DNA of 11,181 nt, taken from UHGV virus genome UHGV-0130923. One strand, given 5' to 3'. Below are positions 1 through 11,181 of this stretch, piece by piece (within the stretch, counting starts at the first letter, position 1; each line of letters starts with the position of its first letter). The translations under genes and the position numbers were made by a program. Source of the DNA: a virus. A model generated the notes under the pieces. That model searched no databases. It had not been told where the DNA came from and saw only the letters and a list, made by a program, of their open reading frames with translations.

Positions 1-1
1 G

Positions 2-124
2 CTGTACGTTTCGCCGATTGTTTCCGGTGAGGTTATCCGTTCCCGTGGCGGCTCCACCTCTGAATTTACGCCGGGATATGTCAAACCCAAGCACTTAGCA
101 TGGCTTTCTGAGGCTTTCGTGTAG
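2..124 (+). CDS. E: Lambda E-like major capsid protein, N-terminal-side fragment of the helper prophage gene (runs off the window start, interrupted by the island)
   Basis: Frame starting at nt 2 reads LYVSPIVSGEVIRSRGGSTSEFTPGYVKPKH, then nine unrelated residues (LAWLSEAFV) and a TAG at 122-124. The conserved part matches lambda gpE residues ~52-82 as I recall them. The reading frame changes character exactly at the direct repeat. Confidence 0.8.
   Translation: MYVSPIVSGEVIRSRGGSTSEFTPGYVKPKHLAWLSEAFV
84..93. other. attL core: left copy of the 10-bp direct repeat AACCCAAGCA
   Basis: Identical 10-mer at 84-93 and 10843-10852, each sitting on the K-P-K-H codons of the split capsid gene. An integrase gene begins ~160 bp inside the left copy. 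Confidence 0.75.
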
Positions 125-202
125 TTGCTGGTTTTTACACTTAATCTTTTGATAATAAAGAATAAGTTTATCTGGTGCTTTCACTGAATTTTCCTCGTTA
201 TC

Positions 203-241
203 TGTGTGTTGCAATCATCTCTGTATTGCAGCTTGTATTGC
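203..241. promoter_or_regulatory. attL arm-type repeats (putative integrase arm-binding sites) overlapping the int leader
   Basis: TGTGTTGCAA (205-214), TGTATTGCAGC (223-233) and TTGTATTGC (233-241). The same TGTATTGCAGC / ATGTATTGCAAC motifs recur at 10745-10769 just inside the right end. Confidence 0.5.
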
Positions 242-256
242 TTTTTGGGGCTAAAA

Positions 257-1492
257 ATGGCTGGCGAGAACAAACTGAGCGACAAAGCGCTTAAAGGATA
301 TCTGGGGAAACCCAGAGAAAAGCAGATCACCATTGCTGATGGAAAGGGGCTTTCTATTCGTGTGAGTACTAAAGGGGCTGTGAGCTTTGTTTTCTTCTAC
401 AGGTTAGCAGGTGGCCGGGCTGCTCCGGTCTGGCTAACGTTGGGTAAATATCCTGATATGTCACTCAAACAGGCAAGGGAAAAGCGCGACGAGTGCCGTG
501 GTTGGTTGGCTGACAAACGTGATCCGCGTATCCAGATTAAGATTCAGGCTGAAGAACGCTTAAAGCCGGTTACAGTGGAGGATGCACTAAATTACTGGTA
601 TGAAAATTACTGTAAGGTGCGTCGTAAAACTCATGCTGTAACGCTTGGCAGATTTCGAAAGCATATCTTTCCCTATATCGGTCATTTGCCCGTAAATGAC
701 ACTCACCTATATGAATGGCTGGACTGTTTTGACCGAATTAAACGTAATGCACCAGTTATGGCGGCGTATGTTTTTTCTGACACTAAATTAGCTCTTCGTT
801 TTTGTCGGGTACGCCAGTACGCGACGTGTGATGCTTTAAAGGATTTGCGCATGAGTGATGTGGGGCAGATTGCAGGTAAGCGGGATCGGGTTCTGGATGA
901 AGCCGAACTCGGCCAGCTCTGGAAGGCAATTTTTGTCGAGCCTGATTTAAAACTAATGTCTGAATACACGCGAAAAATGTTTGTGCTTTGTACAGTATTT
1001 GGATGTCGAATGAGTGAAGCCCGATTATCAGAATGGAGCGAATGGGATCTCGAAAGTTGGGTTTGGACTGTACCAAAAGATCACTCAAAAACTGGTGTTG
1101 AAATCGTCAGACCAGTACCTGAAATTCTACGACAGTGGGTAACGGATGTTCACGAAGAGACAAAACATACTGGTTATGTGCTGGGAAGTCTGCGAATTAG
1201 AGAAAGCGTAAGCAAGATTGGGGGGAAAATCGGTAAACGTTTGGGCCATGAAAAACAATGGTCACTACACGACCTTAGAAGAACGCTATCTACTCATCTA
1301 AGTGATCTCGGTGTTGAATTTTATGTAGTAGAACAACTGTTAGGCCATGCGCTACCTGGCGTGGCAGGTGTTTACAACCGGAGTAAGTTTATGGCTAAAA
1401 AACTGGATGCTCTGGAACTCTGGACTACATATCTCAATAGCATCGCAGGTGCTGATTCAAAAGTGACAATCCTCAAACAAAAGGTTGGTTAA
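257..1492 (+). CDS. int: Tyrosine site-specific integrase, P4-like family
   Basis: ATG at 257 gives MAGENKLSDKALKGYLGKPREKQITIADGKGLSIRVSTKGAVSFVFFYR, a typical P4-type integrase N-terminus. The C-terminus has HDLRRT, LLGHA and GVYNRS, consistent with the catalytic R/H/R/Y signature. The track start at 206 is a GTG extension through the arm repeats and is not preferred. Confidence 0.85.
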   Translation: MAGENKLSDKALKGYLGKPREKQITIADGKGLSIRVSTKGAVSFVFFYRLAGGRAAPVWLTLGKYPDMSLKQAREKRDECRGWLADKRDPRIQIKIQAEERLKPVTVEDALNYWYENYCKVRRKTHAVTLGRFRKHIFPYIGHLPVNDTHLYEWLDCFDRIKRNAPVMAAYVFSDTKLALRFCRVRQYATCDALKDLRMSDVGQIAGKRDRVLDEAELGQLWKAIFVEPDLKLMSEYTRKMFVLCTVFGCRMSEARLSEWSEWDLESWVWTVPKDHSKTGVEIVRPVPEILRQWVTDVHEETKHTGYVLGSLRIRESVSKIGGKIGKRLGHEKQWSLHDLRRTLSTHLSDLGVEFYVVEQLLGHALPGVAGVYNRSKFMAKKLDALELWTTYLNSIAGADSKVTILKQKVG

Positions 1493-1493
1493 C

Positions 1494-1721
1494 ATGAAAA
1501 AAATGGCAATTGTTGATAAAAAGGGTCTGGAGTACATTCCTAACATTGACCGAATGATCCGTGAGAAAGAATGTCGGGAGCTAACCACTCTTGCGAACAG
1601 CACACGCTGGAAGCTGGAGAAGGAAGGAAAATTTCCTAAGCGGATCAAGATTGGTTCCACTGCTGTTGCATATCGTCTTTCAGAAGTGCAGGCATGGATT
1701 CGAGGTGAGTGGGTAGTTTAA
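1494..1721 (+). CDS. alpA: AlpA-family helix-turn-helix protein (putative excisionase or transcriptional regulator)
   Basis: ATG at 1494 lies 2 nt after the int stop with AAGG ~10 nt upstream. The product contains ELTTLANSTRWKLEKEGKFPKRIKIGSTAVAYRLSEVQAWI, which fits the AlpA/Xis-like HTH pattern. Confidence 0.65.
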   Translation: MKKMAIVDKKGLEYIPNIDRMIREKECRELTTLANSTRWKLEKEGKFPKRIKIGSTAVAYRLSEVQAWIRGEWVV

Positions 1722-1746
1722 ATTATCTCAGAATAAAATATTATGA

Positions 1747-1782
1747 ATTACTGATTTGAGAATTTGTACTCAAATCAGTAAT
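1747..1782. terminator. Bidirectional intrinsic terminator hairpin between convergent genes
   Basis: 14-bp perfect inverted repeat ATTACTGATTTGAG / CTCAAATCAGTAAT (1747-1760 and 1769-1782) with an 8-nt loop and AT-rich flanks. It sits between the end of the plus-strand alpA-like gene and the end of the minus-strand membrane-protein gene. Confidence 0.6.
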
Positions 1783-1821
1783 AACATTCTTTATAAGAGA
1801 TTAAATCCAAATAAAGAGTAA

Positions 1822-2328
1822 TCATATACCGGGGTGCATTGCATCCCACTGAATATGCTGATGTTTTTTTTCTGTTTCTATCCTTTTTTCAATAAGTTGT
1901 TGTATATTTTTACAGTACAATTTGTGTGTGATGTTATTATCGTAAGCCTGATATAGCAACGTCAATGTTGATGCTATGAAACATGCAGAAAGAAAATGAA
2001 CTAGTACATGTGAGCGTTTTTTGGTTGTCCATGATGCATTCGCTTGTGAAATATAAATCATTCTGAGAATGATAATGATGATAGACAGTAACAGACCACT
2101 CAATAAAATAAGTATTGGGTTTGCGTATTTAATTAATGGTTGAGAGCAAAAAACTATTATAGCTCCTGTGACTGCGTATGAGAAAAAGGAGTAATTAAAC
2201 TTCTTACTCCTTCTCTCAAGTATTTTAATTTCATCTTGTGTGGGGGTTTTAGATGCCTCTAATATAAGTTTATTAAATGTTTCTGTTATCTTGTTTTTTG
2301 TGTTTGTGGCTATTTTTTTTAGATTCAT
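1822..2328 (-). CDS. Hypothetical membrane protein, about three predicted transmembrane helices (AT-rich accessory cargo)
   Basis: 168-aa ORF with a AAGGGAG ribosome-binding site upstream of the ATG. Hydrophobic stretches FFSYAVTGAIIVFCSQPL, ILILLSGLLLSIIIIIL and VLVHFLSACFIASTLTLL. The gene and its flanks (about 1722-2640) are visibly more AT-rich than the rest of the island. Confidence 0.55.
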   Translation of the reverse strand: MNLKKIATNTKNKITETFNKLILEASKTPTQDEIKILERRSKKFNYSFFSYAVTGAIIVFCSQPLIKYANPILILLSGLLLSIIIIILRMIYISQANASWTTKKRSHVLVHFLSACFIASTLTLLYQAYDNNITHKLYCKNIQQLIEKRIETEKKHQHIQWDAMHPGI

Positions 2329-2678
2329 AGCATTCTAACTCCCTTAACTTATTTATTACTTTCTCTTTATGATAAGAGAGGGGAATGACTTGGTAAAGTG
2401 ATTTGTCATTAATAATGATAATCCTTGCGATAAATATTTCTGCAAGTTATTTACCTGTTTGTTGCTATCTTGTTAAGCGTTGGGTGTGGTTTATGTTTGG
2501 AGCGACTTTATTTAATCGTGATTTTATGGATTTATATTTATATCCTGTAAGATAAGCGCATGTTAGTTCAGGAGTAGTGTCAGATAAAATTATTCGGAGT
2601 AGAACTACCTTTTCTGTTTATTGCCAGTATTTACATAGCAATGCGCCGTAGTTACTCACATCACGGCGCTGATACTAA

Positions 2679-2981
2679 TTATTCAGATTCTTTGGCTTTA
2701 CGCCGCTGGAGTTCTTCACGAGCGACGGCTACGAGTTGCCCGATTTCCTCCGCTGCCTTGATGCCGATTTGTTCGACCTTAGCTAAGGCATCCAGTGAAG
2801 ACACGAGGGGATTTTCTCCGCTTCCTTCTGCCTGGCGGCGGGCGATCTCACCGCGCATGGCGGTTACTATGAATCCGGCGTTGCTTTCGCCGTCCAGTTT
2901 TACGGATTCCATGCCCTCCATAACATCGTGGGGAACCCTGATCGTTGTCATTTGCGATTTTGCATTTTTGTATACAGACAT
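2679..2981 (-). CDS. YlcI/YnfO-family (DUF3950-like) small protein, candidate island regulator
   Basis: 100-aa ORF. The segment TTIRVPHDVMEGMESVKLDGESNAGFIVTAMRGEIARR parallels the pattern of E. coli prophage YlcI (IRFPNQMIEQINIALDQKGSGNFSAWVIEACRRR) as recalled from memory. It is transcribed divergently from the plus-strand operon. Confidence 0.55.
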   Translation of the reverse strand: MSVYKNAKSQMTTIRVPHDVMEGMESVKLDGESNAGFIVTAMRGEIARRQAEGSGENPLVSSLDALAKVEQIGIKAAEEIGQLVAVAREELQRRKAKESE

Positions 2982-3001
2982 AGTTAATCACCAATTTGTT
3001 A

Positions 3002-3104
3002 TGTGTATATCACTATACACAAAAGTGAGATATAAAAACACTTGCAATGTATATCACCACAATATAATGTATATCTCACATTATGGTCGCTATGTATCTC
3101 ACAA
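3002..3104. promoter_or_regulatory. Divergent promoter/operator region with repeated TGTATATC(A/T)CAC-like sites
   Basis: Inverted repeat TGTGTATA-TCAC-TATACACA at 3002-3021, with related copies at 3026-3035 (inverted), 3048-3059, 3068-3081 and 3092-3104, in the AT-rich gap between the two divergent genes. Confidence 0.5.
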
Positions 3105-3189
3105 TGATCGATTCATAAAAACGACGAAACCCGGCAGTGCGCGAACACTAACCGGGCTTCTAACCAAACCGTTAAACGAGGTAACGATT

Positions 3190-3555
3190 ATGGCTGGAAC
3201 ACAGCATACCCAAACTCACCCTAAATTTATATACACCTTTGTGGCACTACACCACGACCGCATGGCAGATGGAGCAACTACGGTACATGTTGCCGCTGAC
3301 ACGCTGGTTGATGCCCGCAAGATGGTTAAGGAGATGGGCTATACTGCGGCTTTCTGGAAAGGGCGTGAAGAAAACACGCTGTTTATTCAGAAATGCGAAA
3401 ACAATTTCATCTGGCGTTTTATCGCCCTGAGCACCGCACAACCACGCGTAATACACATCGTGGCCACCAGCGAACAGGAAGCCCGCCAGCAATCCCCGGC
3501 TGGTTGCGTGATGGTATTCGCCGCCCGTATTCGTCAGGAGGTATGCCGTGCTTAA
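3190..3555 (+). CDS. Hypothetical protein, first gene of the plus-strand early operon
   Basis: ATG at 3190 preceded by GAGGT at 3179-3183. This is the in-frame internal start of track ORF 2641..3555, whose upstream part overlaps the opposite-strand gene and the operator region. Confidence 0.5.
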   Translation: MAGTQHTQTHPKFIYTFVALHHDRMADGATTVHVAADTLVDARKMVKEMGYTAAFWKGREENTLFIQKCENNFIWRFIALSTAQPRVIHIVATSEQEARQQSPAGCVMVFAARIRQEVCRA

Positions 3556-3733
3556 AACCTTCCGTGTATTTGCCCGAGCGGTTAACCCACGAGGCCACAC
3601 AATTGGTATCACTCAGAACGTGAAGGCTGTTAATGTTCAGACGGCTATTGCTGCGGTGAGAAGCGAATCATCAGAATATGGCTTATCACAAGTTATTATT
3701 TCAGCAGTGTATGAATTAAAAGAGGTGCATTAA
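3548..3733 (+). CDS. Hypothetical small protein
   Basis: GTG start at 3548 with a strong AGGAGG at 3535-3540, overlapping the upstream stop (translational coupling). Confidence 0.45.
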   Translation: MLKTFRVFARAVNPRGHTIGITQNVKAVNVQTAIAAVRSESSEYGLSQVIISAVYELKEVH

Positions 3734-3924
3734 TGCAGGAAATTACATTACACGAAGCCGCTGAACGTGCGCACCAGACAGAGATTATTTGCCGCCTTCT
3801 TGAGGTATACCCGAACAAAATTACAGATGCTGATATATCCGCACTGGCGAGCCTACTGGCGCGTCTCTCTGGAGGGGTGGCTGCGTGGTTGCAGGAAGAG
3901 GAAGAAAAACGCAATGAGCAATAA
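3733..3924 (+). CDS. Hypothetical small protein
   Basis: ATG overlaps the previous stop (TAATG) with AGAGG upstream; 63 aa with an acidic C-terminus. Confidence 0.45.
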   Translation: MQEITLHEAAERAHQTEIICRLLEVYPNKITDADISALASLLARLSGGVAAWLQEEEEKRNEQ

Positions 3925-4156
3925 CAAACGCGTAATTTGCGAATTGAATGAACTCACACAAAGCGCAATATCTTACAACAATGCCGTAAGTGAGATTATT
4001 AACGTCTGGTTTGAATCGCTGACAAATTACGAGCGTGACGAGTCAACGGCAAGATTAACCTTTGCCATTTCTGAATTACTGGATATTTCCACCAGCAAGA
4101 TAAACAGAGCATTAGAAAAAATTCACGAATTAAAACACCACACAAACGGAATTTAA
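3914..4156 (+). CDS. Hypothetical small protein
   Basis: Internal ATG at 3914 (MSNNKRVICELNELTQ...) with a purine-rich GGAAGAGGAAG upstream, overlapping the previous gene by 11 nt. The upstream part of track ORF 3767..4156 is Arg-rich and embedded out of frame in the previous gene, so it is not preferred. Confidence 0.4.
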   Translation: MSNNKRVICELNELTQSAISYNNAVSEIINVWFESLTNYERDESTARLTFAISELLDISTSKINRALEKIHELKHHTNGI

Positions 4157-4160
4157 TTAT

Positions 4161-4340
4161 ATGGGAATGAAAAATACTGGTGTTAATGCCAGCGGCCCCG
4201 CTCGTCCTGAATTTATGAACGGCGATATTTACCGTGATAAATACGGCGGCACGGTAACGATTAAAGGCGTGGCAGAACGGCGTATCACTTACCGCTGTGA
4301 AGGCACGGGCAAACATCCAGAAAATGAAAAACATGCTTAA
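4161..4340 (+). CDS. Hypothetical small protein (59 aa, just below the track cutoff)
   Basis: ORF MGMKNTGVNASGPARPEFMNGDIYRDKYGGTVTIKGVAERRITYRCEGTGKHPENEKHA fills the gap before the primase gene on the same strand. No clear ribosome-binding site. Confidence 0.3.
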   Translation: MGMKNTGVNASGPARPEFMNGDIYRDKYGGTVTIKGVAERRITYRCEGTGKHPENEKHA

Positions 4341-4358
4341 CGGATTCAGGGGGCAAAA

Positions 4359-6110
4359 ATGAAGAGCGCACCGAACCTAAAAAAACAGCCGCGCGACAAG
4401 ATGACAGAAGTTATTATTTTTGCGGGTAGTGATGCGTGGAGCCATGCGAAAGAGTGGCAGGAATGGGCGGGTAAACATATTGCCGCCGACGATGTGCCGC
4501 CTGTCGTGCTGGCTGATGAGCAACTGAAAAATATCACCGATTACCGGATCATTGATGAAGATCGTCAGTGTGTGCGTGTTTACCGCGCAGGACATATCAC
4601 AGAGCACAGCATGACGCAGATTGTTACGTTACTGGCTGTGGCTGGAGTGAAGACCGTACACGAATACGCGGGGATTACTGACACCAGCCCCGTGGATTTA
4701 TCCGACCAGTTGCCGCGACTCAAAGAGGAATGCGAGCGTGGGGAAAGTCTGGTGCTTAATCTTCCGACGAAGCAAAAGGCGCAACTTTCACAGATGGCAG
4801 ACAGTGAACGTGCACAACTACTTGCCGATCGCTTTGATGGTGTGTGTGTTCATGCAGAAAGTGAAATCGTCCACGTATGGCGCGGCGGGGTATGGTGTCC
4901 GGTCAGCACAATGGAGCTGAGCCGCGAAATGGTGGCGATCTATTCAGAGCACAGGGCCACATTCAGCAAGCGTGCAATTAATAACGCCGTGGAGGCGTTA
5001 AAAGTTATTGCCGACCCCATGGGGGAGCCGTCCGGTGATTTGCTACCGTTCGCCAATGGTGTGCTTGACCTGAAAACGGGGGAATTTTCCCCGCACTCGC
5101 CGGAGAACTGGATCACCACGCACAACGGCATTGAGTACACGCCACCAGCACCAGGGGAGAACATCCGCGACAACGCGCCAAACTTTCATAAATGGCTTGA
5201 TCACGCAGCCGGAAAAGACCCACGCAAGATGATGCGTATATGTGCCGCGCTGTACATGATTATGGCGAACCGGTACGACTGGCAGATGTTTATTGAGGCC
5301 ACCGGAGACGGCGGGAGCGGAAAGAGTACATTCACGCACATAGCCAGCCTTCTGGCAGGGAAACAGAACACGGTAAGCGCTGAAATGACTTCGCTTGATG
5401 ATGCTGGTGGGCGTGCTCAGGTTGTCGGGAGTCGTCTTATCGTCCTGGCTGACCAGCCGAAATATACAGGCGAAGGCACGGGCATCAAGAAAATCACGGG
5501 CGGCGACCCCGTGGAAATAAACCCGAAATATGAAAAGCGTTTTACGGCGGTAATCAGGGCGGTGGTGCTGGCTACCAACAATAACCCGATGATATTCACC
5601 GAACGGGCCGGAGGTGTGTCACGTCGTCGCGTAATTTTCCGCTTCGACAATATCGTTAGCGAGGCAGAAAAGGACAAGGATTTACCGGAGAAGGTCGCGG
5701 CTGAAATCCCCGTGATTATCCGCAGATTGCTGGCAAACTTTGCTGATCCAGAAAAGGCGCGACATTTGTTGATTGAACAGCGCGACGGTGAAGAAGCACT
5801 GGCGATAAAGCAACAGACGGATCCGGTTATTGAGTTTTGCCAGTTTCTGAATTTTCTGGAGGAAGCGCGCGGCCTGATGATGGGTGGCGGTGGCGATTCC
5901 GTGAAGTACACGACCAGAAACAGCCTTTACCGCGTCTATCTGGCGTTTATGGCATACGCAGGCAGAAGCAAGCCGCTAAACGTGGCTGATTTCAGCAAGG
6001 CCATGAAGCCAGCGGCGAAAGTTTACGGATGTGAATATATAACGCGCAGGGTTAAAGGACTTACGCAAACCAATGTGACAACAACAGAGGATTGCGACGC
6101 GTTTTTATAA
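4359..6110 (+). CDS. Primase-helicase family replication protein (P4 alpha C-terminal / D5-like NTPase)
   Basis: 583 aa with a Walker A P-loop GDGGSGKST and a downstream hydrophobic strand ending in acidic residues (RLIVLADQP), Walker B-like. AGGGGG ribosome-binding site before the ATG at 4359. An iteron array lies immediately downstream. Confidence 0.75.
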   Translation: MKSAPNLKKQPRDKMTEVIIFAGSDAWSHAKEWQEWAGKHIAADDVPPVVLADEQLKNITDYRIIDEDRQCVRVYRAGHITEHSMTQIVTLLAVAGVKTVHEYAGITDTSPVDLSDQLPRLKEECERGESLVLNLPTKQKAQLSQMADSERAQLLADRFDGVCVHAESEIVHVWRGGVWCPVSTMELSREMVAIYSEHRATFSKRAINNAVEALKVIADPMGEPSGDLLPFANGVLDLKTGEFSPHSPENWITTHNGIEYTPPAPGENIRDNAPNFHKWLDHAAGKDPRKMMRICAALYMIMANRYDWQMFIEATGDGGSGKSTFTHIASLLAGKQNTVSAEMTSLDDAGGRAQVVGSRLIVLADQPKYTGEGTGIKKITGGDPVEINPKYEKRFTAVIRAVVLATNNNPMIFTERAGGVSRRRVIFRFDNIVSEAEKDKDLPEKVAAEIPVIIRRLLANFADPEKARHLLIEQRDGEEALAIKQQTDPVIEFCQFLNFLEEARGLMMGGGGDSVKYTTRNSLYRVYLAFMAYAGRSKPLNVADFSKAMKPAAKVYGCEYITRRVKGLTQTNVTTTEDCDAFL

Positions 6111-6120
6111 TTTTAGACAA

Positions 6121-6353
6121 AAGCCCTCTACCTCCTCTACCTAAAGAAAATAAATATATATTATTCAATATGATAAGCAGGTAGAGGGCTAGGTAGAAGG
6201 CAAATAAAAGCCCTCTACCTCCTCCACCATGATTAAGGTCATTTGTGAGGGGCGGGTAGAGGATGGGTAGAGGGCCCCGAAAGCCCTCTACCCATCTGAA
6301 AGCCGCGCCATTACTGACCTGAAAGATGATTAGGTAGAGAGGTAGAGGAGGTG
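6121..6353. repeat. Iteron array, putative island origin of replication
   Basis: About 11 copies of CCTCTACC / GGTAGAGG in alternating orientation (for example 6124-6141, 6180-6200, 6210-6227, 6254-6274, 6284-6293, 6333-6351), with an AT-rich stretch at 6142-6180, directly after the primase-helicase gene. Confidence 0.65.
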
Positions 6354-6396
6354 CACCACATTTCAAAACTTTTTAAACGAGGGGGTAAAAATAAAA

Positions 6397-6654
6397 ATGC
6401 ACACATCAGGAAAACTGAACAAACATATAAAGCCACATTACCGCGCCCTTGATATGGCTGAACACTGGCTAAGGGTGGCGATTAAGGCAATAGATCGCAA
6501 CGCCGGGGAAGGATACGCGAAAGCACATCCCGAACTGATAAGCGCATTCATGACAACGGCGGCTGCAAACTTTGCCACGCTGACCGAACGGGAGATTGCC
6601 GAAGCGGAGGAAGTGACAACCATCAATATTAAGTCCGGAGAGCAGGCAGCATGA
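6397..6654 (+). CDS. Hypothetical protein
   Basis: 85-aa ORF with GAGGGGG upstream; its stop overlaps the start of the SSB-like gene (ATGA). Confidence 0.45.
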   Translation: MHTSGKLNKHIKPHYRALDMAEHWLRVAIKAIDRNAGEGYAKAHPELISAFMTTAAANFATLTEREIAEAEEVTTINIKSGEQAA

Positions 6655-7073
6655 CGGCGCAAATATCAGTTTACGGGAGGTTGGTGGACGACCCGCAGAC
6701 AAAACAGACCAGCAAGGGCATCCCCATGACGCTGGCGCGTATGGCGGTATCACTGCCCTGCAGTCAGTCGGATGACGGTCAGGCGACGATGTGGTTATCT
6801 GTCCTGGCGTTTGGCAGACAAGCCGACACGCTGGCAAAGCATCACAAAGGCGAACTCCTGAGCGTGGCGGGTAACATGCAGGTGAGCCAGTGGACTGGAC
6901 AGAACGGTGAAACGCGGCAGGGCTGGCAGGTTATCGCAGACAGTGTAATCAGTGCCAGAACGGCGCGACCGGGCGGCAAAAAAGGTCAACAGGGCCAGGC
7001 TACTGACGCACTGAACAGGGCAAAACAACAGTCGGGGAATGATGATCCGTACGGCGATAATATACCGTTTTAA
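6651..7073 (+). CDS. ssb: Single-stranded DNA-binding protein-like (OB fold with an acidic C-terminal tail)
   Basis: 140 aa. The N-terminus ISVYGRLVDDPQ and the spaced W/G/F pattern resemble SSB OB folds, followed by a Gly/Gln-rich linker. The C-terminal DDPYGDNIPF resembles the E. coli SSB tail DFDDDIPF. Confidence 0.6.
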   Translation: MTAQISVYGRLVDDPQTKQTSKGIPMTLARMAVSLPCSQSDDGQATMWLSVLAFGRQADTLAKHHKGELLSVAGNMQVSQWTGQNGETRQGWQVIADSVISARTARPGGKKGQQGQATDALNRAKQQSGNDDPYGDNIPF

Positions 7074-7090
7074 ATTCTGAAAATAAAAAA

Positions 7091-7119
7091 ATGCCGGAAG
7101 AAAATAGATTTTCCGGCAT
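7091..7119. terminator. Hairpin at the boundary between the replication and capsid modules
   Basis: ATGCCGGAA / TTCCGGCAT 9-bp stem with an 11-nt loop. The A-run before it means the U-tract is on the minus strand, so as an intrinsic terminator it would act on leftward transcription; for the plus strand it is only a hairpin. Confidence 0.35.
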
Positions 7120-7290
7120 GCTACATAAATCCCGACCAAAGGAAGTAAATACATTAACACGAATTATCAGCACTGAAGTTGTCACGGCAGATTTTATACA
7201 ACATTGCACTTGGTTGCATGTATTCGCATAGCAAATATCGGTGATAGCATATATCCACAATCATTTTTAATGAATGCAAAGAGGATGCGT

Positions 7291-8331
7291 ATGGTTGATT
7301 TATATTCGCCTGCCCAGCTTGTGCAGGTGGCTAATGCTGAAGATGTGCAAAAAAAATTAAATGCGTTGTTTACCAGTTTGTTTTTCACTCGCTCGGTAAT
7401 GTTTGAATCGAGAGACATTATTCTTGATACGATCGACGATCCAAATATCCCGATCGCGGCGTTTTGCTCTCCTATGGTGGGCAGTAAGGTTTCACGAGAT
7501 GAGGGATACGAATCAAAGACAATTCGTCCAGGCTATATGAAGCCGAAAAGCAGCATTGATCCAAATAAGTTAGCTGTGCGCCCTGCGGGTGTATCACCTG
7601 AGCAATACAATGCTTTTGGAGCGCGTAATATTAAAGTTAAACAGGCGATTGTAAATCAGGCTAAAGCTATTCGTGCACGTATTGAATGGCTTGCCGTTCA
7701 GGCAATCACAACGGGGAAAAATATCATTGAGGGCGATGGTATTGAACGTTATGAGCTGGACTGGAATATTAAACCACAAAATATCATCACTCAGTCTGGC
7801 GGTGCTGAGTGGTCAGGTAAGGATAAAGAAACTTTTGATCCAAATGATGATATTGAGAGCTACGCAGAATTTAGTGAGGGCGTCACTAATATCATCATTA
7901 TGGGCGGTAATGTATGGAAGAAATACCGTTCATTCAGAGCGATAAAAGAGGCTCTGGATACCCGTCGTGGTTCTAATGCCGAACTGGAAACGGCCCTTAA
8001 AGACCTTGGTGATTCGGTGAGTTTTAAAGGGTATATGGGCGATGTTGCGATTGTTGTATACAGCGGGCGTTATACCGACGAGGACGGAACTGAAAAACAT
8101 TTCCTTGATCCTGATTTGATGGTGCTTGGCAATACGGCTCTTCAGGGGATTGTCGCCTATGGCGGTATTCAGGATCCGGAGCTAATCCGAATGGGGCTGA
8201 CTAAAGCCGAACTTGCACCGAAAAACTATATTGTGCCTGGTGATCCGGCTATTGAATATGTGCAGACACATTCAGCACCACAGCCAATACCGGCCCGCAT
8301 CAATCGTTTTGTTACCGTTCGCATTGGCTAA
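7291..8331 (+). CDS. Island-encoded divergent homolog of the lambda major capsid protein gpE
   Basis: ATG at 7291 with AAAGAGGA upstream. The product aligns with lambda gpE along its length: ITQSGGAEWSGKDKETFDPNDDIESYA vs ITQSGGTEWSKRDKSTYDPTDDIEAYA, TRRGSNAELETALKDLG vs TRRGSNSELETAVKDLG, GDVAIVVYSG and MVLGNT shared. It is far more divergent than the flanking helper fragments. Confidence 0.85.
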   Translation: MVDLYSPAQLVQVANAEDVQKKLNALFTSLFFTRSVMFESRDIILDTIDDPNIPIAAFCSPMVGSKVSRDEGYESKTIRPGYMKPKSSIDPNKLAVRPAGVSPEQYNAFGARNIKVKQAIVNQAKAIRARIEWLAVQAITTGKNIIEGDGIERYELDWNIKPQNIITQSGGAEWSGKDKETFDPNDDIESYAEFSEGVTNIIIMGGNVWKKYRSFRAIKEALDTRRGSNAELETALKDLGDSVSFKGYMGDVAIVVYSGRYTDEDGTEKHFLDPDLMVLGNTALQGIVAYGGIQDPELIRMGLTKAELAPKNYIVPGDPAIEYVQTHSAPQPIPARINRFVTVRIG

Positions 8332-8340
8332 GGGGGAGCA

Positions 8341-8682
8341 ATGGCTACTCATTACACTGAACTCATGGCTGGCACTGAAGCACTGGTGACTACGCTGGGG
8401 ATATTTTCAGCTAATAAAGGGGTAATTCCTGCATTTACGCCACTGATGCAGGAAGATGCAACAGGTGCACTGGTGGTATGGGATGGTTCGAGCGTAGGTA
8501 AAGCGGTTTATGTTTCCGCTGTACAAATCGACACCGCGAAAAAAACACAGGCTCAGGTCTATAAGACAGGTGTCTTAAATGTTGATGCTCTGAACTGGCC
8601 TGAGTCTGTAAAAGAACTGTCAGTAAAGATTGCAGCGTTTGTTGGCTCAGGTATTTCTGTTCAGCCGCTGGCTCGTGTGTAA
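8341..8682 (+). CDS. Island-encoded homolog of the lambda head decoration protein gpD
   Basis: 113 aa with an AAGGGGGAG ribosome-binding site. TPLMQEDATGALVVWDGSS...YKTGVLNVDALNWPE...AAFVGSGISV parallels lambda gpD TPLMLDTSSRKLVAWDGTT...YKSGTFRYEDVLWPE...TAFAGTAISIV. Confidence 0.8.
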   Translation: MATHYTELMAGTEALVTTLGIFSANKGVIPAFTPLMQEDATGALVVWDGSSVGKAVYVSAVQIDTAKKTQAQVYKTGVLNVDALNWPESVKELSVKIAAFVGSGISVQPLARV

Positions 8683-8693
8683 AGGGGGATACA

Positions 8694-9077
8694 ATGCAGA
8701 ATCTTTACAATGACCTTAAGCCAATTGCCGAAATGATGTATCCGGATCCAGCAGTAGAGGAATTAAAGGCTATTGCTGACAAAATGCGTTTAAGCGAGCG
8801 TCTTGTTGATATGAATCAGGTGATGGAACTTACAACCCTGAGTCGTCGTACACTGCTAAACCTTGAAGCACGTGGAGAGTTCCCCGAACGCGTGCAGGTT
8901 ACGGAAGGGCGTAAGGCCTGGTATTTAAGCGAAGTGATCGACTGGATAAACAATATTCCGCGCGCTTCTGAATATTGCCGCGTACCTGTCCCAAAAAAGC
9001 CAGATGCGGCGCTATGCCTCAAGATTGAGCGTGTACGCCGCAATGCGCGGGATGGTCGCTATAAGCTGATTGGTTGA
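8694..9077 (+). CDS. Second AlpA-family HTH protein, directly upstream of cos
   Basis: 127 aa with an AAAGGGGGA ribosome-binding site. Contains MELTTLSRRTLLNLEARGEFPERVQVTEGRKAWYLSEVIDWIN, an AlpA-like motif. Co-oriented and tightly spaced with the E and D homologs. Confidence 0.6.
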   Translation: MQNLYNDLKPIAEMMYPDPAVEELKAIADKMRLSERLVDMNQVMELTTLSRRTLLNLEARGEFPERVQVTEGRKAWYLSEVIDWINNIPRASEYCRVPVPKKPDAALCLKIERVRRNARDGRYKLIG

Positions 9078-9103
9078 TGAAATTAGGGCCCGTTCTGGCT
9101 GGC

Positions 9104-9167
9104 GGGTCCTTTCCGGCGATCCGACAGGTTACGGGGCGGCGACCTCGCGGGTTTTCGCTATTTATGA
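9104..9167. other. Lambda-type cos site (cosQ-side sequence, cosN GGGCGGCGACCT at 9134-9145, first cosB element)
   Basis: GGGTCCTTTCCGGCGATCCGACAGGTTACG-GGGCGGCGACCT-CGCGGGTTTTCGCTATTTATGA matches the lambda genome ends as I recall them (right end ...CCGACAGGTTACG, left end GGGCGGCGACCTCGCGGGTTTTCGCTATTTATGA...). Sequence after 9167 no longer matches lambda cosB. A Nu1-like gene follows ~150 bp downstream, as in lambda. Confidence 0.8.
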
Positions 9168-9293
9168 GCATTTTTAGGGGACTGGTGGTGGTTTTGTTGT
9201 TCGCTATATCTGTATGAATAATAAGAGAAAAACACAATCAACACACCAACCTGAAACAGTAATTAAGTTGTGGTATCAATGAAATTGCACCTG

Positions 9294-9821
9294 ATGAACA
9301 AAAAAAACATGGCAAAAAGTTGCCGTGTAAGCGCCACTGCGTTCGATAAGTGGGGAGTGATTCCCGTCGAGCGTAAGGGCCGCGAGGCGTTTTATGATGT
9401 CGCCAGTGTAATAGATAATCGGGTTAACAATGCAATCAGCCAGATTACAAACGAAACGGGCGAGATTGATGATGATGAACTCCTACGAGTCAGGATCAGA
9501 TTGCTGACAGCACAGGCAGAGGCGCAGGAGCTTAAAAACGAGCGCGAACGCGGCGACGTTATTGATACAGCGTTTTGTATATACGTGCTTTCAAAACTGG
9601 CGAGTCAGATTTCTTCAATCATGGACAGCCTGCCGCTTGCCATGACAAGGAAGTTTCCCGACATGAAGCCGTCTATGCTGGATGGACTGAAAAAAGAAGT
9701 TATCAGAGCCTGTAACGCATGCGCAAAACTTGACGAAAACATACCGCTGATGCTGTCCGATTATCTGATGGAAACTGCCGGAAACGTACCGGATAAGTTG
9801 CAGCTGAATAAAGATAAGTAA
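9294..9821 (+). CDS. Nu1-like terminase small subunit
   Basis: LTAQAEAQELKNERERGDVIDTAFCIYVLSKLASQISSIMDSLPLAMTRKFP...LDENIPLMLSDYLMETAG parallels lambda Nu1 LTRAQADAQELKNARDSAEVVETAFCTFVLSRIAGEIASILDGLPLSVQRRFP...LDELIPGLLSEYIEQSG. Start chosen at ATG 9294 (MNKKNM...) by analogy with Nu1 MEVNKKQ; ATG 9279 and GTG 9270 are alternatives. Confidence 0.75.
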   Translation: MNKKNMAKSCRVSATAFDKWGVIPVERKGREAFYDVASVIDNRVNNAISQITNETGEIDDDELLRVRIRLLTAQAEAQELKNERERGDVIDTAFCIYVLSKLASQISSIMDSLPLAMTRKFPDMKPSMLDGLKKEVIRACNACAKLDENIPLMLSDYLMETAGNVPDKLQLNKDK

Positions 9822-9832
9822 CGTAGTACGCT

Positions 9833-10114
9833 ATGACTGAATCCGAAATACTGCGATTAATCCGCCGTGCTTGTGGAATCAGCAAGCAGCATGACGAACA
9901 GGCCACGCAGCCGGACAGCGTGATCGCCGAAAATTACGCGCGTGTTGTTGCTGATGTGATGCGCCGTGATGGTATTGAGCTTAACGGCGTGGATATGCGC
10001 GACATACGGATCAGATTCCTTGAGTTGCTGGCATACCGTCGCCGTTCTCAACAACGAAGGGAGAGCGCGAAAAACACTTATCAGTGGAAGAAGCCGGAAC
10101 GGTTGCGGCGGTAG
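9833..10114 (+). CDS. Hypothetical Arg-rich small protein, possibly a vestigial terminase large subunit (gpA) N-terminal fragment
   Basis: 93-aa ORF immediately after the Nu1-like gene, where gpA begins in lambda. Weak resemblance of SEILRLIRRACGIS...AENYA to gpA N-terminus SQVNRLRHFVRAGLRS...ADANYY; the remainder is Arg-rich. Weak ribosome-binding site. Confidence 0.3.
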   Translation: MTESEILRLIRRACGISKQHDEQATQPDSVIAENYARVVADVMRRDGIELNGVDMRDIRIRFLELLAYRRRSQQRRESAKNTYQWKKPERLRR

Positions 10115-10744
10115 ATTCCTGATATTCAGGAAAACCACGAATCCGGGGGTTTTACTGGCGCGGTGTACACGGTGGAACGTATAGCGTTACCTGACTTATT
10201 GCATTGTAAAAAGTTGAAAGGCACGGCCTGTAAGATGGGATGTTGTGAGTAGTTTAAAGCTACCCGCAAATTCTTTCGTTGTGCTGGCACAGGCGGTTAA
10301 ACCGTCGGTAACTGGATAATCCCCACTGGGGGAAAAGCTGGCTACATCCCTCACATCTGAGGACTGATAACGCAAAATTGCGTTGGCTGGCAGAGTGCAA
10401 ATTTGCACGATGGCCTAACCCATTGATTCTTTCGAAAACCCCCATTGGGGGAGAACGGGGGAATAAACCTGACTCATTGATTTTTCCACAATCCTTAATT
10501 TGAGGAAGCTGGATAGTTGCACTACCCAAAAAGTGCAGTACCCACATAGCTGCTTAATAGCGTTTATTTTTTCCGCACACCTCAAATCTGAGAAGGCCGG
10601 AATGATGACATGGCAGGATTATGATTCCTTGATTTCAAGGAGTCCTCCAGTGTGAAAATGAAATTATCTGGGCTGGTGGGTGAGTTGCTGATCTGCAACT
10701 CGGCTATGAAACTTAATAATCGAACAGCATGTAAATTCATTTCT

Positions 10745-10769
10745 GTGTATTGCAGCATGTATTGCAACA
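10745..10769. promoter_or_regulatory. attR arm-type repeats (putative integrase arm-binding sites)
   Basis: TGTGTATTGCAGC (10745-10757) and ATGTATTGCAAC (10758-10769), the same motif family as at 205-241 in the left end. Confidence 0.5.
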
Positions 10770-10842
10770 TAGTCATTCTGGTAGAGATTATGCTCTATTT
10801 TTCCTCTTATATCATTCACATACTTACGTCATTGACTCATGT

Positions 10843-10852
10843 AACCCAAGCA
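10843..10852. other. attR core: right copy of the 10-bp direct repeat AACCCAAGCA
   Basis: Identical to 84-93; the capsid reading frame resumes immediately (P-K-H-E-V-N-P-Q). Confidence 0.75.
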
Positions 10853-11181
10853 TGAGGTGAATCCGCAGATGACCCTGCGTCGCCTGCCGGATGAAGATCC
10901 GCAGAATCTGGCGGACCCGGCTTACCGCCGCCGTCGCATCATCATGCAGAACATGCGTGACGAAGAGCTGGCCATTGCTCAGGTCGAAGAGATGCAGGCA
11001 GTTTCTGCCGTGCTTAAGGGCAAATACACCATGACCGGTGAAGCCTTTGATCCGGTTGAGGTGGATATGGGGCGCAGTGCGGCGAACAACATCACACAGT
11101 CCGGTGGCACGGAGTGGAGCAAGCGCGACAAGTCCACGTATGACCCGACCGACGATATCGAAGCCTACGCGCTGAACGCCA
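10845..11181 (+). CDS. E: Lambda E-like major capsid protein, distal fragment of the helper prophage gene (runs off the window end)
   Basis: Frame from 10845 reads PKHEVNPQMTLRRLPDEDPQNLADPAYRRRRIIMQNMRDEELAIAQVEEMQAVSAVLKGKYTMTGEAFDPVEVDMGRSAANNITQSGGTEWSKRDKSTYDPTDDIEAYALNA, which continues lambda gpE from residue ~80 as I recall it. An in-frame TAA at 10842-10844 immediately precedes it. Confidence 0.8.

What the first reader, a model, noticed from the sequence alone, without database searches (positions are those of the whole stretch)
1..11181. Satellite-like island integrated inside the major capsid gene of a lambda-like prophage
Both window edges are one capsid gene split at the K-P-K-H codons (about residues 79-82 of gpE), and the ~10.76 kb insert is bracketed by a 10-bp direct repeat (84-93 and 10843-10852) with a P4-family integrase just inside the left copy. 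The left fragment ends in nine junk residues and a stop, so the helper cannot make full-length capsid protein while the island is in place. The only difference at the two core edges is a silent His codon (CAC vs CAT), so precise excision would restore an intact capsid gene. This would be an active-lysogeny-like switch in which a satellite sits in, and conditionally inactivates, an essential structural gene of its own helper. P4-like integrases usually target tRNA genes, which makes this target unusual.
Basis: partly seen in the sequence, partly recalled or inferred. Interest (0 to 1): 0.95.

Follow-up and report, generated by a model that had tools for sequence, protein, structure and literature searches.

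The report
Known satellite embedded in prophage capsid gene

Summary
Window 1-93 and 10853-11181 are the two halves of a lambda-type major capsid gene (gpE). They are split at K-P-K-H by a 10,759-bp island flanked by the 10-bp repeat AACCCAAGCA. Joining 93 to 10853 restores the open frame, and the flanks are contiguous in many lambdoid phages.

Tommasini, Mageeney and Williams (2023, PMC10111431) described "helper-embedded PICIs". Their prototype, 11capE of E. coli NRG857c, uses this same site (E:Phage_cap_E:80) and the same identity block. They reported 201 instances at this site and measured excision after mitomycin C.

The window's integrase is 99.5% identical to the prototype's, and the attP arm motif lies at the published spacing. 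In 5,426 complete E. coli genomes I found 173 with this left junction and 3,104 with the empty site.

What differs is modest. This copy has a swapped replication module. In place of the prototype's truncated Nu1 and defence cargo it carries a full-length diverged small terminase (38.5% identical to the helper's Nu1) next to its own cosB. The same satellite body also occurs at chromosomal sites with other integrases.

Verdict: real, well read, already known.

The parts
1..93 (+). 5' part of the helper prophage major capsid gene (lambda gpE homolog). The window begins at about residue 51; the gene is cut after K-P-K-H.
   Evidence: Translation; 97-98% DNA identity to capsid genes of lambdoid phages.
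84..93 (+). attL core, AACCCAAGCA (10-bp identity block).
   Evidence: It is the same identity block listed for the E:Phage_cap_E:80 group in the paper's supplement.
94..123 (+). Island-derived tail fused to the truncated gpE: nine residues, LAWLSEAFV, then a stop.
222..241 (+). Doubled TGTATTGC motif (attP arm site, P' side). It starts about 132 bp downstream of the core centre.
   Evidence: The spacing matches the 132 +/- 2 bp reported in PMC10111431.
257..1492 (+). Tyrosine integrase of the HE-PICI clade (411 aa), co-oriented with gene E.
   Evidence: Pfam Arm-DNA-bind_3 3.7e-19 and Phage_integrase 1e-16. 99.5% aa identity to the 11capE integrase.
1494..1721 (+). AlpA (excisionase/activator family), 75 aa.
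   Evidence: Pfam Phage_AlpA 2.8e-15. 100% identical to 11capE AlpA.
1747..1782 (+). 14-bp-stem hairpin between convergent alpA and the reverse cargo ORF; terminator-like.
   Evidence: This is a consensus scan only.
1822..2328 (-). Cargo ORF (168 aa) with a strongly hydrophobic segment, in an AT-rich stretch (GC 0.32). Function unknown.
   Evidence: No PHROG or PADLOC hit. Hydropathy and GC. 86% identical to the equivalent ORF of 11capE.
2679..2981 (-). YlcI/YnfO-family small protein (100 aa), divergent from the early operon.
   Evidence: phrog_6522 1.7e-61. RefSeq name of the homolog.
3001..3103 (+). Array of ATGTATATCWCA-like repeats in the divergent regulatory region; putative operators.
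   Evidence: Six of the window's seven matches (two of them overlapping) lie here, against a chance mean of 1.87 for the whole window.
3190..3555 (+). Icd-like protein (121 aa).
   Evidence: phrog_1743 2.3e-29. RefSeq name of the homolog.
3548..4340 (+). Four small conserved PICI ORFs (61, 63, 80 and 59 aa), the last with DUF4222.
4359..6110 (+). Primase/helicase-type replication protein (583 aa).
   Evidence: Pfam D5_N 1.4e-16 and DUF5906 3.9e-10. 82.6% identical to the EcCICFT073 primase and 48.7% to the 11capE primase.
6119..6352 (.). Iteron array (GGTAGAGG x8, both orientations): putative origin of replication.
   Evidence: chance mean 0.17.
6397..6654 (+). Conserved 85-aa PICI ORF.
   Evidence: phrog_1231 3.2e-48. 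80% identical to the EcCICFT073 homolog.
6651..7073 (+). Single-strand DNA-binding protein.
   Evidence: Pfam SSB 2.7e-16.
7291..8331 (+). The island's own major capsid paralog (346 aa).
   Evidence: Pfam Phage_cap_E 4e-41. PDB 3BQW 3.9e-121 and lambda gpE 5e-77. 42% identical to helper gpE. It lacks the attB sequence.
8341..8682 (+). The island's own head decoration paralog (113 aa).
   Evidence: Pfam HDPD 4.4e-15. PDB phage 21 SHP and lambda gpD. 38% identical to helper gpD.
8694..9077 (+). Second AlpA-family wHTH protein (127 aa).
   Evidence: Pfam Phage_AlpA 1.4e-08. PDB 8C3T AlpA 1.6e-10.
9102..9174 (+). cos site (cosQ/cosN region, including GGGCGGCGACCT) shared with the helper. Sequence downstream (about 9175-9278) is an island-specific cosB region.
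   Evidence: 97% identity to the helper cos over 73 bp only. Alignment.
9279..9821 (+). Full-length diverged small terminase subunit (Nu1 family, 180 aa).
   Evidence: Pfam Phage_Nu1 2.1e-24. phrog_57 2.3e-51. 38.5% identical to helper Nu1 with a conserved C-terminal half.
9833..10114 (+). Conserved 93-aa PICI ORF.
   Evidence: phrog_1561 1.3e-53. 73% identical to the ORF downstream of rppA in EcCICFT073.
10746..10765 (+). Doubled TGTATTGC motif (attP arm site, P side). It ends about 81 bp upstream of the core centre.
   Evidence: The spacing matches the 81 +/- 2 bp reported in PMC10111431.
10843..10852 (+). attR core, AACCCAAGCA.
10853..11181 (+). 3' continuation of helper gene E, from residue 83 (EVNPQ...) to the window end.

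Best explanation
The window holds a helper-embedded phage-inducible chromosomal island (HE-PICI) of the published E:Phage_cap_E:80 group. It is integrated by its own tyrosine integrase into codon ~80 of gene E of a lambda-like prophage and points the same way as the late operon.

Shown by sequence:
- While the island is in place, the helper can only make an 82-residue gpE fragment.
- Recombination within the 10-bp core restores gene E exactly.

Shown experimentally for the near-identical prototype (not for this copy):
- After SOS induction the whole prophage-plus-island composite excises and replicates.
- The island then excises precisely about an hour later.

Inferred:
- Helper late transcription reads from E' into int-alpA and times the island's excision.
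- The island replicates from its iteron origin using its own primase and SSB.
- Its DNA is cut at a cosN shared with the helper. Specificity comes from its own cosB and its own Nu1-type small terminase, which would pair with the helper's large terminase.
- It leaves in virions built from helper portal, protease, tail and possibly its own gpE/gpD paralogs.
- Four island units (43 kb) would fill a lambda-sized head.
For: Site and restoration.

Same family as the prototype: integrase 99.5%, AlpA 100% and capsid 98.6% identical to 11capE. The attL sequence matches entries in the paper's supplement, with the same identity block aacccaagca. The doubled TGTATTGC motif lies at -81/+132 from the core centre.

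Helper context: a full lambdoid Nu1-A-W-B-C-D-[E']-island-['E]-FI-FII-Z-U-V-G-T-H order in L001, L004, L005 and L008. L005 is 99.9% identical to the whole window.

Experimental excision and delayed timing: PMC10111431.

PICI identity: the int-alpA / regulatory / primase-ori-SSB / late-zone order matches EcCICFT073, with primase 83%, SSB 73% and ORF93 73% identity.

Packaging module: cosN shared with the helper for 73 bp and then divergent. Full-length TerS with a C-terminal half conserved with Nu1.

Size arithmetic.

Population: 173 occupied and 3,104 empty sites among 5,426 genomes.
Against: - No infectious helper or satellite particles could be detected from the prototype strain, so transfer is unproven.
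- Some helpers are visibly defective: there is a portal pseudogene in L001 and a truncated island remnant in L006. Some copies may therefore be stranded.
- In the related EcCICFT073, deleting the capsid and decoration paralogs changed neither transfer nor interference, and packaged DNA was phage-sized. The role of these genes is therefore unknown.
- Read-through transcription from the late operon has not been measured. A strong hairpin follows alpA.
- Promoter and terminator scans were no better than shuffled sequence.
- Only 422 bp of the helper is in the window itself.
Confidence: 0.88

Rival explanations
1. The island is a stranded, dead-end insertion. It landed in gene E of a prophage that is now decaying, and it no longer acts as a regulated switch or moves between cells.
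For: The portal pseudogene in the helper of L001. The truncated remnant in L006. The paper notes that many helpers look truncated and that no plaque-forming units were recovered.
Against: All island ORFs in the window are intact. Both att cores and both arm motifs are intact. The near-identical copy L005 has full-length helper head and tail genes on both sides. The prototype excises precisely on induction. The junction is found in 173 genomes from many hosts.
Confidence: 0.15
2. The island mainly serves the bacterium as a prophage lock. By splitting the capsid gene and carrying variable defence cargo, it lowers helper phage output and protects the population. Its own transfer would be secondary.
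For: While the island is integrated the helper cannot make gpE. Sister islands carry HEPN/DUF262, DUF2971 or abortive-infection genes in the variable ends. Related PICIs interfere with lambda.
Against: This copy has no recognisable defence gene. Excision restores gene E, so the block is temporary. The island keeps a complete cos-terS packaging module, which only makes sense for its own transfer.
Confidence: 0.2
3. The island's gpE and gpD paralogs build small, satellite-sized capsids (as Ccm does for SaPIbov5), excluding the helper genome.
For: Full-length capsid and decoration homologs, diverged to about 40% from the helper's. Pasteurella PICIs that encode a capsid homolog make small heads.
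Against: In EcCICFT073, which has the same gene pair (55% and 54% identity), all packaged DNA was phage-sized and deleting either gene had no effect. There is no island portal, scaffold or protease. Four island units fit a normal lambda head.
Confidence: 0.2
4. The split capsid gene is an assembly or chimera artefact.
For: None found.
Against: The same junctions occur in 173 (attL) and 45 (this attR variant) complete genomes. An independent assembly is 99.9% identical. Junctions were verified experimentally in the prototype.
Confidence: 0.01

Closest known systems
Eco567.11capE, the prototype helper-embedded PICI of E. coli NRG857c (Tommasini, Mageeney and Williams 2023, PMC10111431)
   Same: - Same integration site (E:Phage_cap_E:80) and the same 10-bp identity block.
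- Same orientation in the late operon.
- Integrase 99.5%, AlpA 100%, capsid 98.6% and decoration protein 100% identical.
- Same doubled TGTATTGC arm motifs at the same spacing.
- 98% DNA identity over window 1-3309 and 94.5% over 6444-9174.
   Different: - Replication module swapped: primase only 48.7% identical.
- After cos the prototype has a helper-like cosB, a 64-aa Nu1 remnant and HEPN/DUF262 cargo. This copy has its own cosB, a full-length Nu1-family TerS, a 93-aa ORF and about 700 bp of non-coding DNA.
- The prototype's cosN differs at several positions.
EcCICFT073, the model Gram-negative cos PICI (Fillol-Salom et al. 2018, PMC6092414; 2019, PMC6739421)
   Same: - Same four-zone order.
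- Primase 83%, ORF85 80%, SSB 73% and ORF93 73% identical.
- The same capsid and decoration paralog pair (55% and 54%).
- cosN shared with lambda but a different cosB.
- Lambdoid helpers.
   Different: - EcCICFT073 sits at a chromosomal site next to roxA/ycfD, not in its helper.
- Integrase only 45% identical.
- Packaging is redirected by RppA (144 aa), which binds the helper TerS. This island has no Rpp homolog and instead has a full-length TerS in the same position.
Chromosomal PICIs L003 (next to rcnR-rcnA) and L007 (allantoin locus), found here
   Same: 97-98% DNA identity to window ~3495-10127/10486. That stretch covers the same primase, SSB, capsid, decoration protein, AlpA2, cos and TerS.
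   Different: Different integrases (406 and 409 aa) and att sites. They are integrated in the chromosome, not in a prophage.
Satellite phage P4
   Same: A related integrase type (Arm-DNA-bind_3 N-terminal domain; a sister clade according to PMC10111431). A D5_N/primase-type replication protein. An AlpA/Vis-type regulator. Dependence on a helper's morphogenetic genes.
   Different: P4 integrates in a tRNA-Leu gene, exploits P2 rather than lambda, and resizes capsids with Sid and Psu. None of these is present here.
Active lysogeny / regulated gene integrity elements (for example phi10403S in Listeria comK, or skin and SPbeta in Bacillus sporulation genes); recalled from general knowledge and cited in PMC10111431
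   Same: A mobile element splits a gene without carrying a replacement segment. Precise excision at a defined time restores the gene.
   Different: Here the interrupted gene belongs to another mobile element (the helper phage), and the benefit is presumed to go to the satellite rather than to the cell.

Membership tests
Helper-embedded PICI (HE-PICI), site group E:Phage_cap_E:80 | [quoted passage not shown] | tested here: met
   Both flanks are gene E on the + strand, and int, alpA and the primase are on +. The full late operon surrounds near-identical copies.
Helper-embedded PICI (HE-PICI), site group E:Phage_cap_E:80 | Insertion at codon ~80 of the Phage_cap_E profile, with the identity block aacccaagca (or agccgaagca). 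| tested here: met
   The split falls at K79-P-K-H82 of gpE with core AACCCAAGCA. This is the same block as in the paper's supplement.
Helper-embedded PICI (HE-PICI), site group E:Phage_cap_E:80 | Integrase belongs to the HE-PICI clade / cap_E subclade. | tested here: met
   99.5% aa identity over 411 residues to the prototype 11capE integrase. No tree was built.
Helper-embedded PICI (HE-PICI), site group E:Phage_cap_E:80 | Doubled motif tgTGTATTGCantgTGTATTGCa, 81 +/- 2 bp upstream and 132 +/- 2 bp downstream of the attP centre. | tested here: met
   Half-sites at 10746-10753 and 10758-10765: the doubled motif ends about 81.5 bp before the core centre. Half-sites at 222-229 and 234-241: the doubled motif starts about 131.5 bp after it.
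Helper-embedded PICI (HE-PICI), site group E:Phage_cap_E:80 | No replacement segment in attP, so the target gene is disrupted until excision. | tested here: met
   At attL, gpE runs into nine unrelated residues and a stop.
Helper-embedded PICI (HE-PICI), site group E:Phage_cap_E:80 | Precise excision after helper induction, later than helper excision. | not testable with these tools
   Shown for the prototype by qPCR and deep sequencing. Not measured for this copy.
Gram-negative PICI (Fillol-Salom 2018) | About 10-15 kb island with int, alpA, primase-type replicon with its own ori, no lysis or tail genes, and a cos site. | tested here: met
   10,759 bp. Gene content. Iteron array. cos.
Gram-negative PICI (Fillol-Salom 2018) | Helper-dependent induction and high-frequency transfer in helper virions. 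| not testable with these tools
   Not shown even for the prototype: no plaque-forming units or particles were recovered.
Rpp-type packaging redirection (Fillol-Salom 2019) | Encodes an Rpp homolog (about 144-153 aa wHTH protein) that heterodimerises with the helper TerS. | tested here: not met
   No BLASTP similarity between any late-zone ORF and the 144-aa ORF at the rppA position of EcCICFT073. No PDB hit to RppC (6HLK/6HN7) from the TerS-like or AlpA2 ORFs. The identification of that 144-aa ORF as RppA rests on its length and position only.
Capsid-forming PICI (cf-PICI) | Encodes a complete head module: capsid, portal, protease/scaffold, head-tail adaptors, TerS and TerL. | tested here: not met
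   Only capsid, decoration and TerS homologs are present. There is no portal, protease, TerL or connector.
P4-like satellite | Core genes psu, delta, sid, alpha, epsilon/cnr, with a P2-type helper. | tested here: not met
   None of these families was detected in the Pfam or PHROG scans. Only the integrase type, the AlpA-type regulator and the D5_N primase domain are shared.

The most novel reading that the evidence does not exclude
The most novel reading still open concerns the variant, not the insertion itself, which is published.

This variant has replaced Rpp-type hijacking with a self-sufficient specificity module: its own cosB plus a full-length Nu1-type TerS that keeps the TerL-binding half. 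Together with its own gpE/gpD paralogs, that would make it independent of exactly the helper products it disables or competes with (gpE while integrated, Nu1 during packaging).

If so, it would be an intermediate between classical PICIs and capsid-forming PICIs. The same body also moves between embedded and chromosomal lifestyles simply by swapping the int/attP module.
Probability: 0.3. Interest if true: 0.4.

Novelty: already known. Interest (0 to 1): 0.3.

Why it matters
The biology is striking. A parasite of a virus hides inside an essential structural gene of that virus, so the virus cannot build heads until the parasite has left. This gives cis-coupled timing, passive co-replication and guaranteed co-inheritance.

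All of this was laid out in 2023, including this exact site, so the window adds another member rather than a discovery. Its residual value has three parts:
- It is a clean, intact example, with a near-identical copy (L005) flanked by full-length helper head and tail genes.
- It is a natural variant pair with the prototype (own TerS and cosB versus helper-type cosB and truncated Nu1). That pair could be used to test how embedded satellites obtain packaging specificity.
- It shows that the same satellite body switches between embedded and chromosomal integration by module exchange.

Tried and rejected
- Rpp hypothesis. I suspected the Nu1-like ORF or the second AlpA-like ORF was an Rpp homolog. 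PDB sequence searches and direct BLASTP against the 144-aa ORF at the rppA position of EcCICFT073 found no similarity, so I rejected it. The ORF is a genuine full-length TerS homolog.
- Immunity RNAs. The paper reports P4-type immunity RNAs (Rfam C4/isrK) in some HE-PICIs. An Rfam scan at E<=1 found none here. It found only a sub-threshold symR-like hit and two spurious microRNA hits on the iteron array.
- Promoter and terminator scan. It gave no more sites than shuffled sequence and was not used as evidence.
- Defence cargo. PADLOC found nothing in the unknown ORFs.
- Recent capture of helper genes. Rejected for this copy: the island's capsid, decoration and TerS genes are only 38-42% identical to the helper's.
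- Small-capsid model. Downgraded because of the EcCICFT073 deletion and DNA-size data.
- Phage records. None in the INPHARED collection contains the island, so I found no evidence that the composite is packaged as one genome.
- Scripting slips. My first regex for the doubled motif was too strict and printed nothing, so I took positions from the half-site matches. My first locus comparison read a multi-record file as one subject and had to be redone.

Full report
**Observation**

Reading frame 2 of window 1-93 gives LYVSPIVSGEVIRSRGGSTSEFTPGYVKPKH, which is lambda gpE up to His82. It then runs into nine unrelated residues (LAWLSEAFV) and a stop. Window 10853-11181 continues EVNPQMTLRRLPDEDPQNLADPAYRRRRIIMQNMRDEELAIAQVEEMQ....

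The 10-mer AACCCAAGCA occurs at 84-93 and 10843-10852, and the two junctions share nothing beyond it. Joining 93 to 10853 yields one open gpE frame.

In sequenced lambdoid phages (PhiR70_1, Stx1a phages, HK629/HK630, mEp332 and others) the two flanks form a single 422-bp match inside the annotated major capsid gene at 97-98% identity. So the flanks are one gene, and empty sites exist.

**What the insert is**

The 10,759-bp insert encodes, left to right on the + strand:
- a tyrosine integrase with the Arm-DNA-bind_3 N-terminal domain
- AlpA
- an AT-rich cargo stretch with a reverse-strand 168-aa hydrophobic ORF
- a reverse YlcI/YnfO-family gene, facing an Icd-like gene across a repeat-rich regulatory region
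- several small conserved ORFs
- a D5_N/DUF5906 primase
- an iteron array (GGTAGAGG x8)
- SSB
- a gpE-family capsid protein
- a gpD-family decoration protein
- a second AlpA-family protein
- a cos site
- a Nu1-family small terminase
- a conserved 93-aa ORF

This is the gene order of Gram-negative PICIs. Direct comparison with EcCICFT073 (L009) gives primase 83%, ORF85 80%, SSB 73%, ORF93 73%, capsid 55%, decoration protein 54% and integrase 45% amino-acid identity.

Around near-identical copies of the island lies a complete lambdoid late operon: Nu1, A, W, B, C, D, then the split E, then FI, FII, Z, U, V, G, T, H and onward. Locus L005 (GCA_051784605.1) matches the whole window at 99.9%.

**It is already published**

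A literature search returned Tommasini, Mageeney and Williams, NAR Genomics and Bioinformatics 2023 (PMC10111431). They describe an 11-kb island, Eco567.11capE, in E. coli NRG857c. [quoted passage not shown] They found 201 instances at this site and 491 HE-PICIs at 14 late-gene sites.

After mitomycin C they showed three steps by qPCR and deep sequencing: precise excision of the composite at 1 h, its replication, and then precise excision of the island at 2 h. They discuss the arrangement as "regulated gene integrity" that serves the satellite, and they propose late-operon read-through into int.

Their supplement lists the identity block aacccaagca for this group. It also contains attL sequences that match the window's over the 163 bases shown.

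**Membership tests**

| Feature | Result |
|---|---|
| Integrase vs 11capE | 99.5% identical |
| AlpA vs 11capE | 100% identical |
| Capsid vs 11capE | 98.6% identical |
| Decoration protein vs 11capE | 100% identical |
| Doubled TGTATTGC motif, P side | 10746-10765, ending ~81 bp before the core centre (paper: 81 +/- 2) |
| Doubled TGTATTGC motif, P' side | 222-241, starting ~132 bp after the core centre (paper: 132 +/- 2) |

The island's own capsid gene reads ATGAAGCCGAAAAGCAGC at the homologous position, so it lacks the attB core. This fits the paper's remark that self-integration is prevented. All sequence-testable defining features are met. Only the excision behaviour could not be tested here.

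**Frequency**

I used junction-spanning queries against 5,426 complete E. coli genomes.

| Query | Genomes |
|---|---|
| attL junction | 173 |
| This particular attR variant | 45 |
| Uninterrupted site | 3,104 |

An assembly artefact is excluded. No record in the phage collection contains the island.

**How this copy differs from the prototype**

DNA identity to 11capE is 98% over window 1-3309 and 94.5% over 6444-9174. The replication module is replaced (primase 48.7% aa identity), and the right end is different.

The prototype has a helper-like cosB with recognisable R-type repeats, a 64-aa Nu1 remnant, and a reverse HEPN/DUF262 pair. The paper accordingly says it "lacks terS".

The window shares only 73 bp with the helper cos. 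That stretch is the cosQ/cosN region and includes the GGGCGGCGACCT cohesive end. The sequence then diverges completely into its own cosB region, followed by a full-length TerS (phrog_57, 2.3e-51, covering 2-174 of 180 residues).

This TerS is 38.5% identical to the helper Nu1 along its whole length. Conservation is strongest in the C-terminal half. From general knowledge of lambda, that half carries the region that binds the large terminase gpA. It shows no similarity to the 144-aa ORF at the rppA position of EcCICFT073, nor to RppC in the PDB.

The paper's main text and the supplements held as text do not mention Nu1. The same cos-TerS module is present in chromosomal PICIs (below), and RefSeq annotates it as a terminase small subunit.

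**Module exchange**

The identical primase protein is found in three settings:
- embedded in gene E (L004, L005, L008)
- in PICIs at ordinary chromosomal sites with different integrases: L003, beside rcnR-rcnA, and L007, in the allantoin locus
- in a truncated remnant (L006)

L003 and L007 share window ~3495-10486 and ~3495-10127 at 97% and 98%. The embedded lifestyle therefore depends on the int/alpA/attP module (roughly window 94-3494 plus the right arm), attached to a common satellite body.

**Mechanism**

*Shown by sequence.* The helper can make only an 82-residue gpE fragment while the island is in place, and core recombination restores the gene.

*Shown experimentally for the prototype.* Excision is precise and delayed after induction.

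*Inferred.*
- Q-dependent late transcription enters int-alpA.
- Replication proceeds from the iteron origin.
- Packaging starts at the shared cosN, with specificity from the island's cosB and TerS acting with the helper's TerL.
- Heads, connectors and tails come from the helper.
- Four island units equal 43.0 kb, or 0.89 of a lambda genome. This fits the finding that EcCICFT073 DNA in particles is phage-sized.

The role of the capsid and decoration paralogs is open. In EcCICFT073 their deletion had no effect on transfer or interference. In an island that disables gpE they could matter more, as the paper also suggests.

**Caveats**

- Transfer has never been demonstrated. The authors could not obtain plaques.
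- Some helpers are defective (the portal pseudogene in L001), so some copies may be stranded.
- The window contains only 422 bp of the helper.

**Verdict**

I rate it as already known, with modest residual interest in the TerS/cosB variant and the module swapping.

Noticed in passing
window 3001-3103: A cluster of ATGTATATCWCA-like repeats lies between the divergent YlcI/YnfO-like and Icd-like genes. Six of the window's seven matches (two of them overlapping) fall here, against a chance mean of 1.87 for the whole window. It looks like an operator array for an unidentified island regulator.
   Followed up: partly
window 3123-3195 (-): A sub-threshold Rfam hit to the SymR antitoxin RNA (35 bits against a gathering score of 61; E=0.0011). 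It lies antisense to the ribosome-binding site and start codon of the Icd-like ORF. It could be a cis-antisense regulator of a cell-division inhibitor, or just a terminator hairpin.
   Followed up: no
window 6119-6352: A dense iteron array: eight exact copies of GGTAGAGG in both orientations, against a chance mean of 0.17, plus longer AAAGCCCTCTACC repeats. It lies just downstream of the primase gene and is presumably the island origin. It also produced two spurious microRNA Rfam hits.
   Followed up: partly
window 1741-2680: An AT-rich stretch (GC 0.32, against 0.46 for the island). It holds a reverse-strand 168-aa ORF with a strongly hydrophobic segment and no PHROG or PADLOC match. Sister islands carry DUF2971 at this position (L008), so it is a variable cargo slot.
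   Followed up: partly
L003 6242-15759 and L007 6518-15756: PICIs at chromosomal sites (beside rcnR-rcnA, and in the allantoin locus). They share 97-98% identity with window ~3495-10127/10486, including the identical primase protein, but have different integrases. The embedded and chromosomal lifestyles differ only in the integration module.
   Followed up: partly
L002 (NRG857c 11capE) about 9190-9215, against window 9130-9155: The prototype's cosN region differs from the lambda-type cohesive end at several positions (GGGGCGTCAGGCGCGCAG against GGGGCGGCGACCTCGCGG), while its cosB resembles the helper type. The window shows the opposite pattern. I did not compare it with the prototype's own helper cos.
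   Followed up: no
L001 15550-17151: In E. coli GN06489 the helper prophage that carries a 95%-identical island has a portal gene annotated with an internal stop, and it sits among DLP12-type genes (emrE, ybcK, rusA). That helper is probably defective, leaving its island stranded.
   Followed up: no
L006 about 6774-12439: A truncated copy of the island (window 1131-6797 only, 99.8% identical). It is flanked by lambdoid early/lysis genes on one side and ymg genes on the other. The integrase is not called as a gene, and the capsid, cos and terS genes are absent. This is a decayed remnant.
   Followed up: no
window 10115-10842: About 730 bp at the right end has no convincing ORF and no Rfam match, apart from the arm-site motif at 10746-10765. 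Parts of it (about 10369-10509) recur unannotated in other E. coli genomes. Its function is unknown beyond serving as the attP arm.
   Followed up: no
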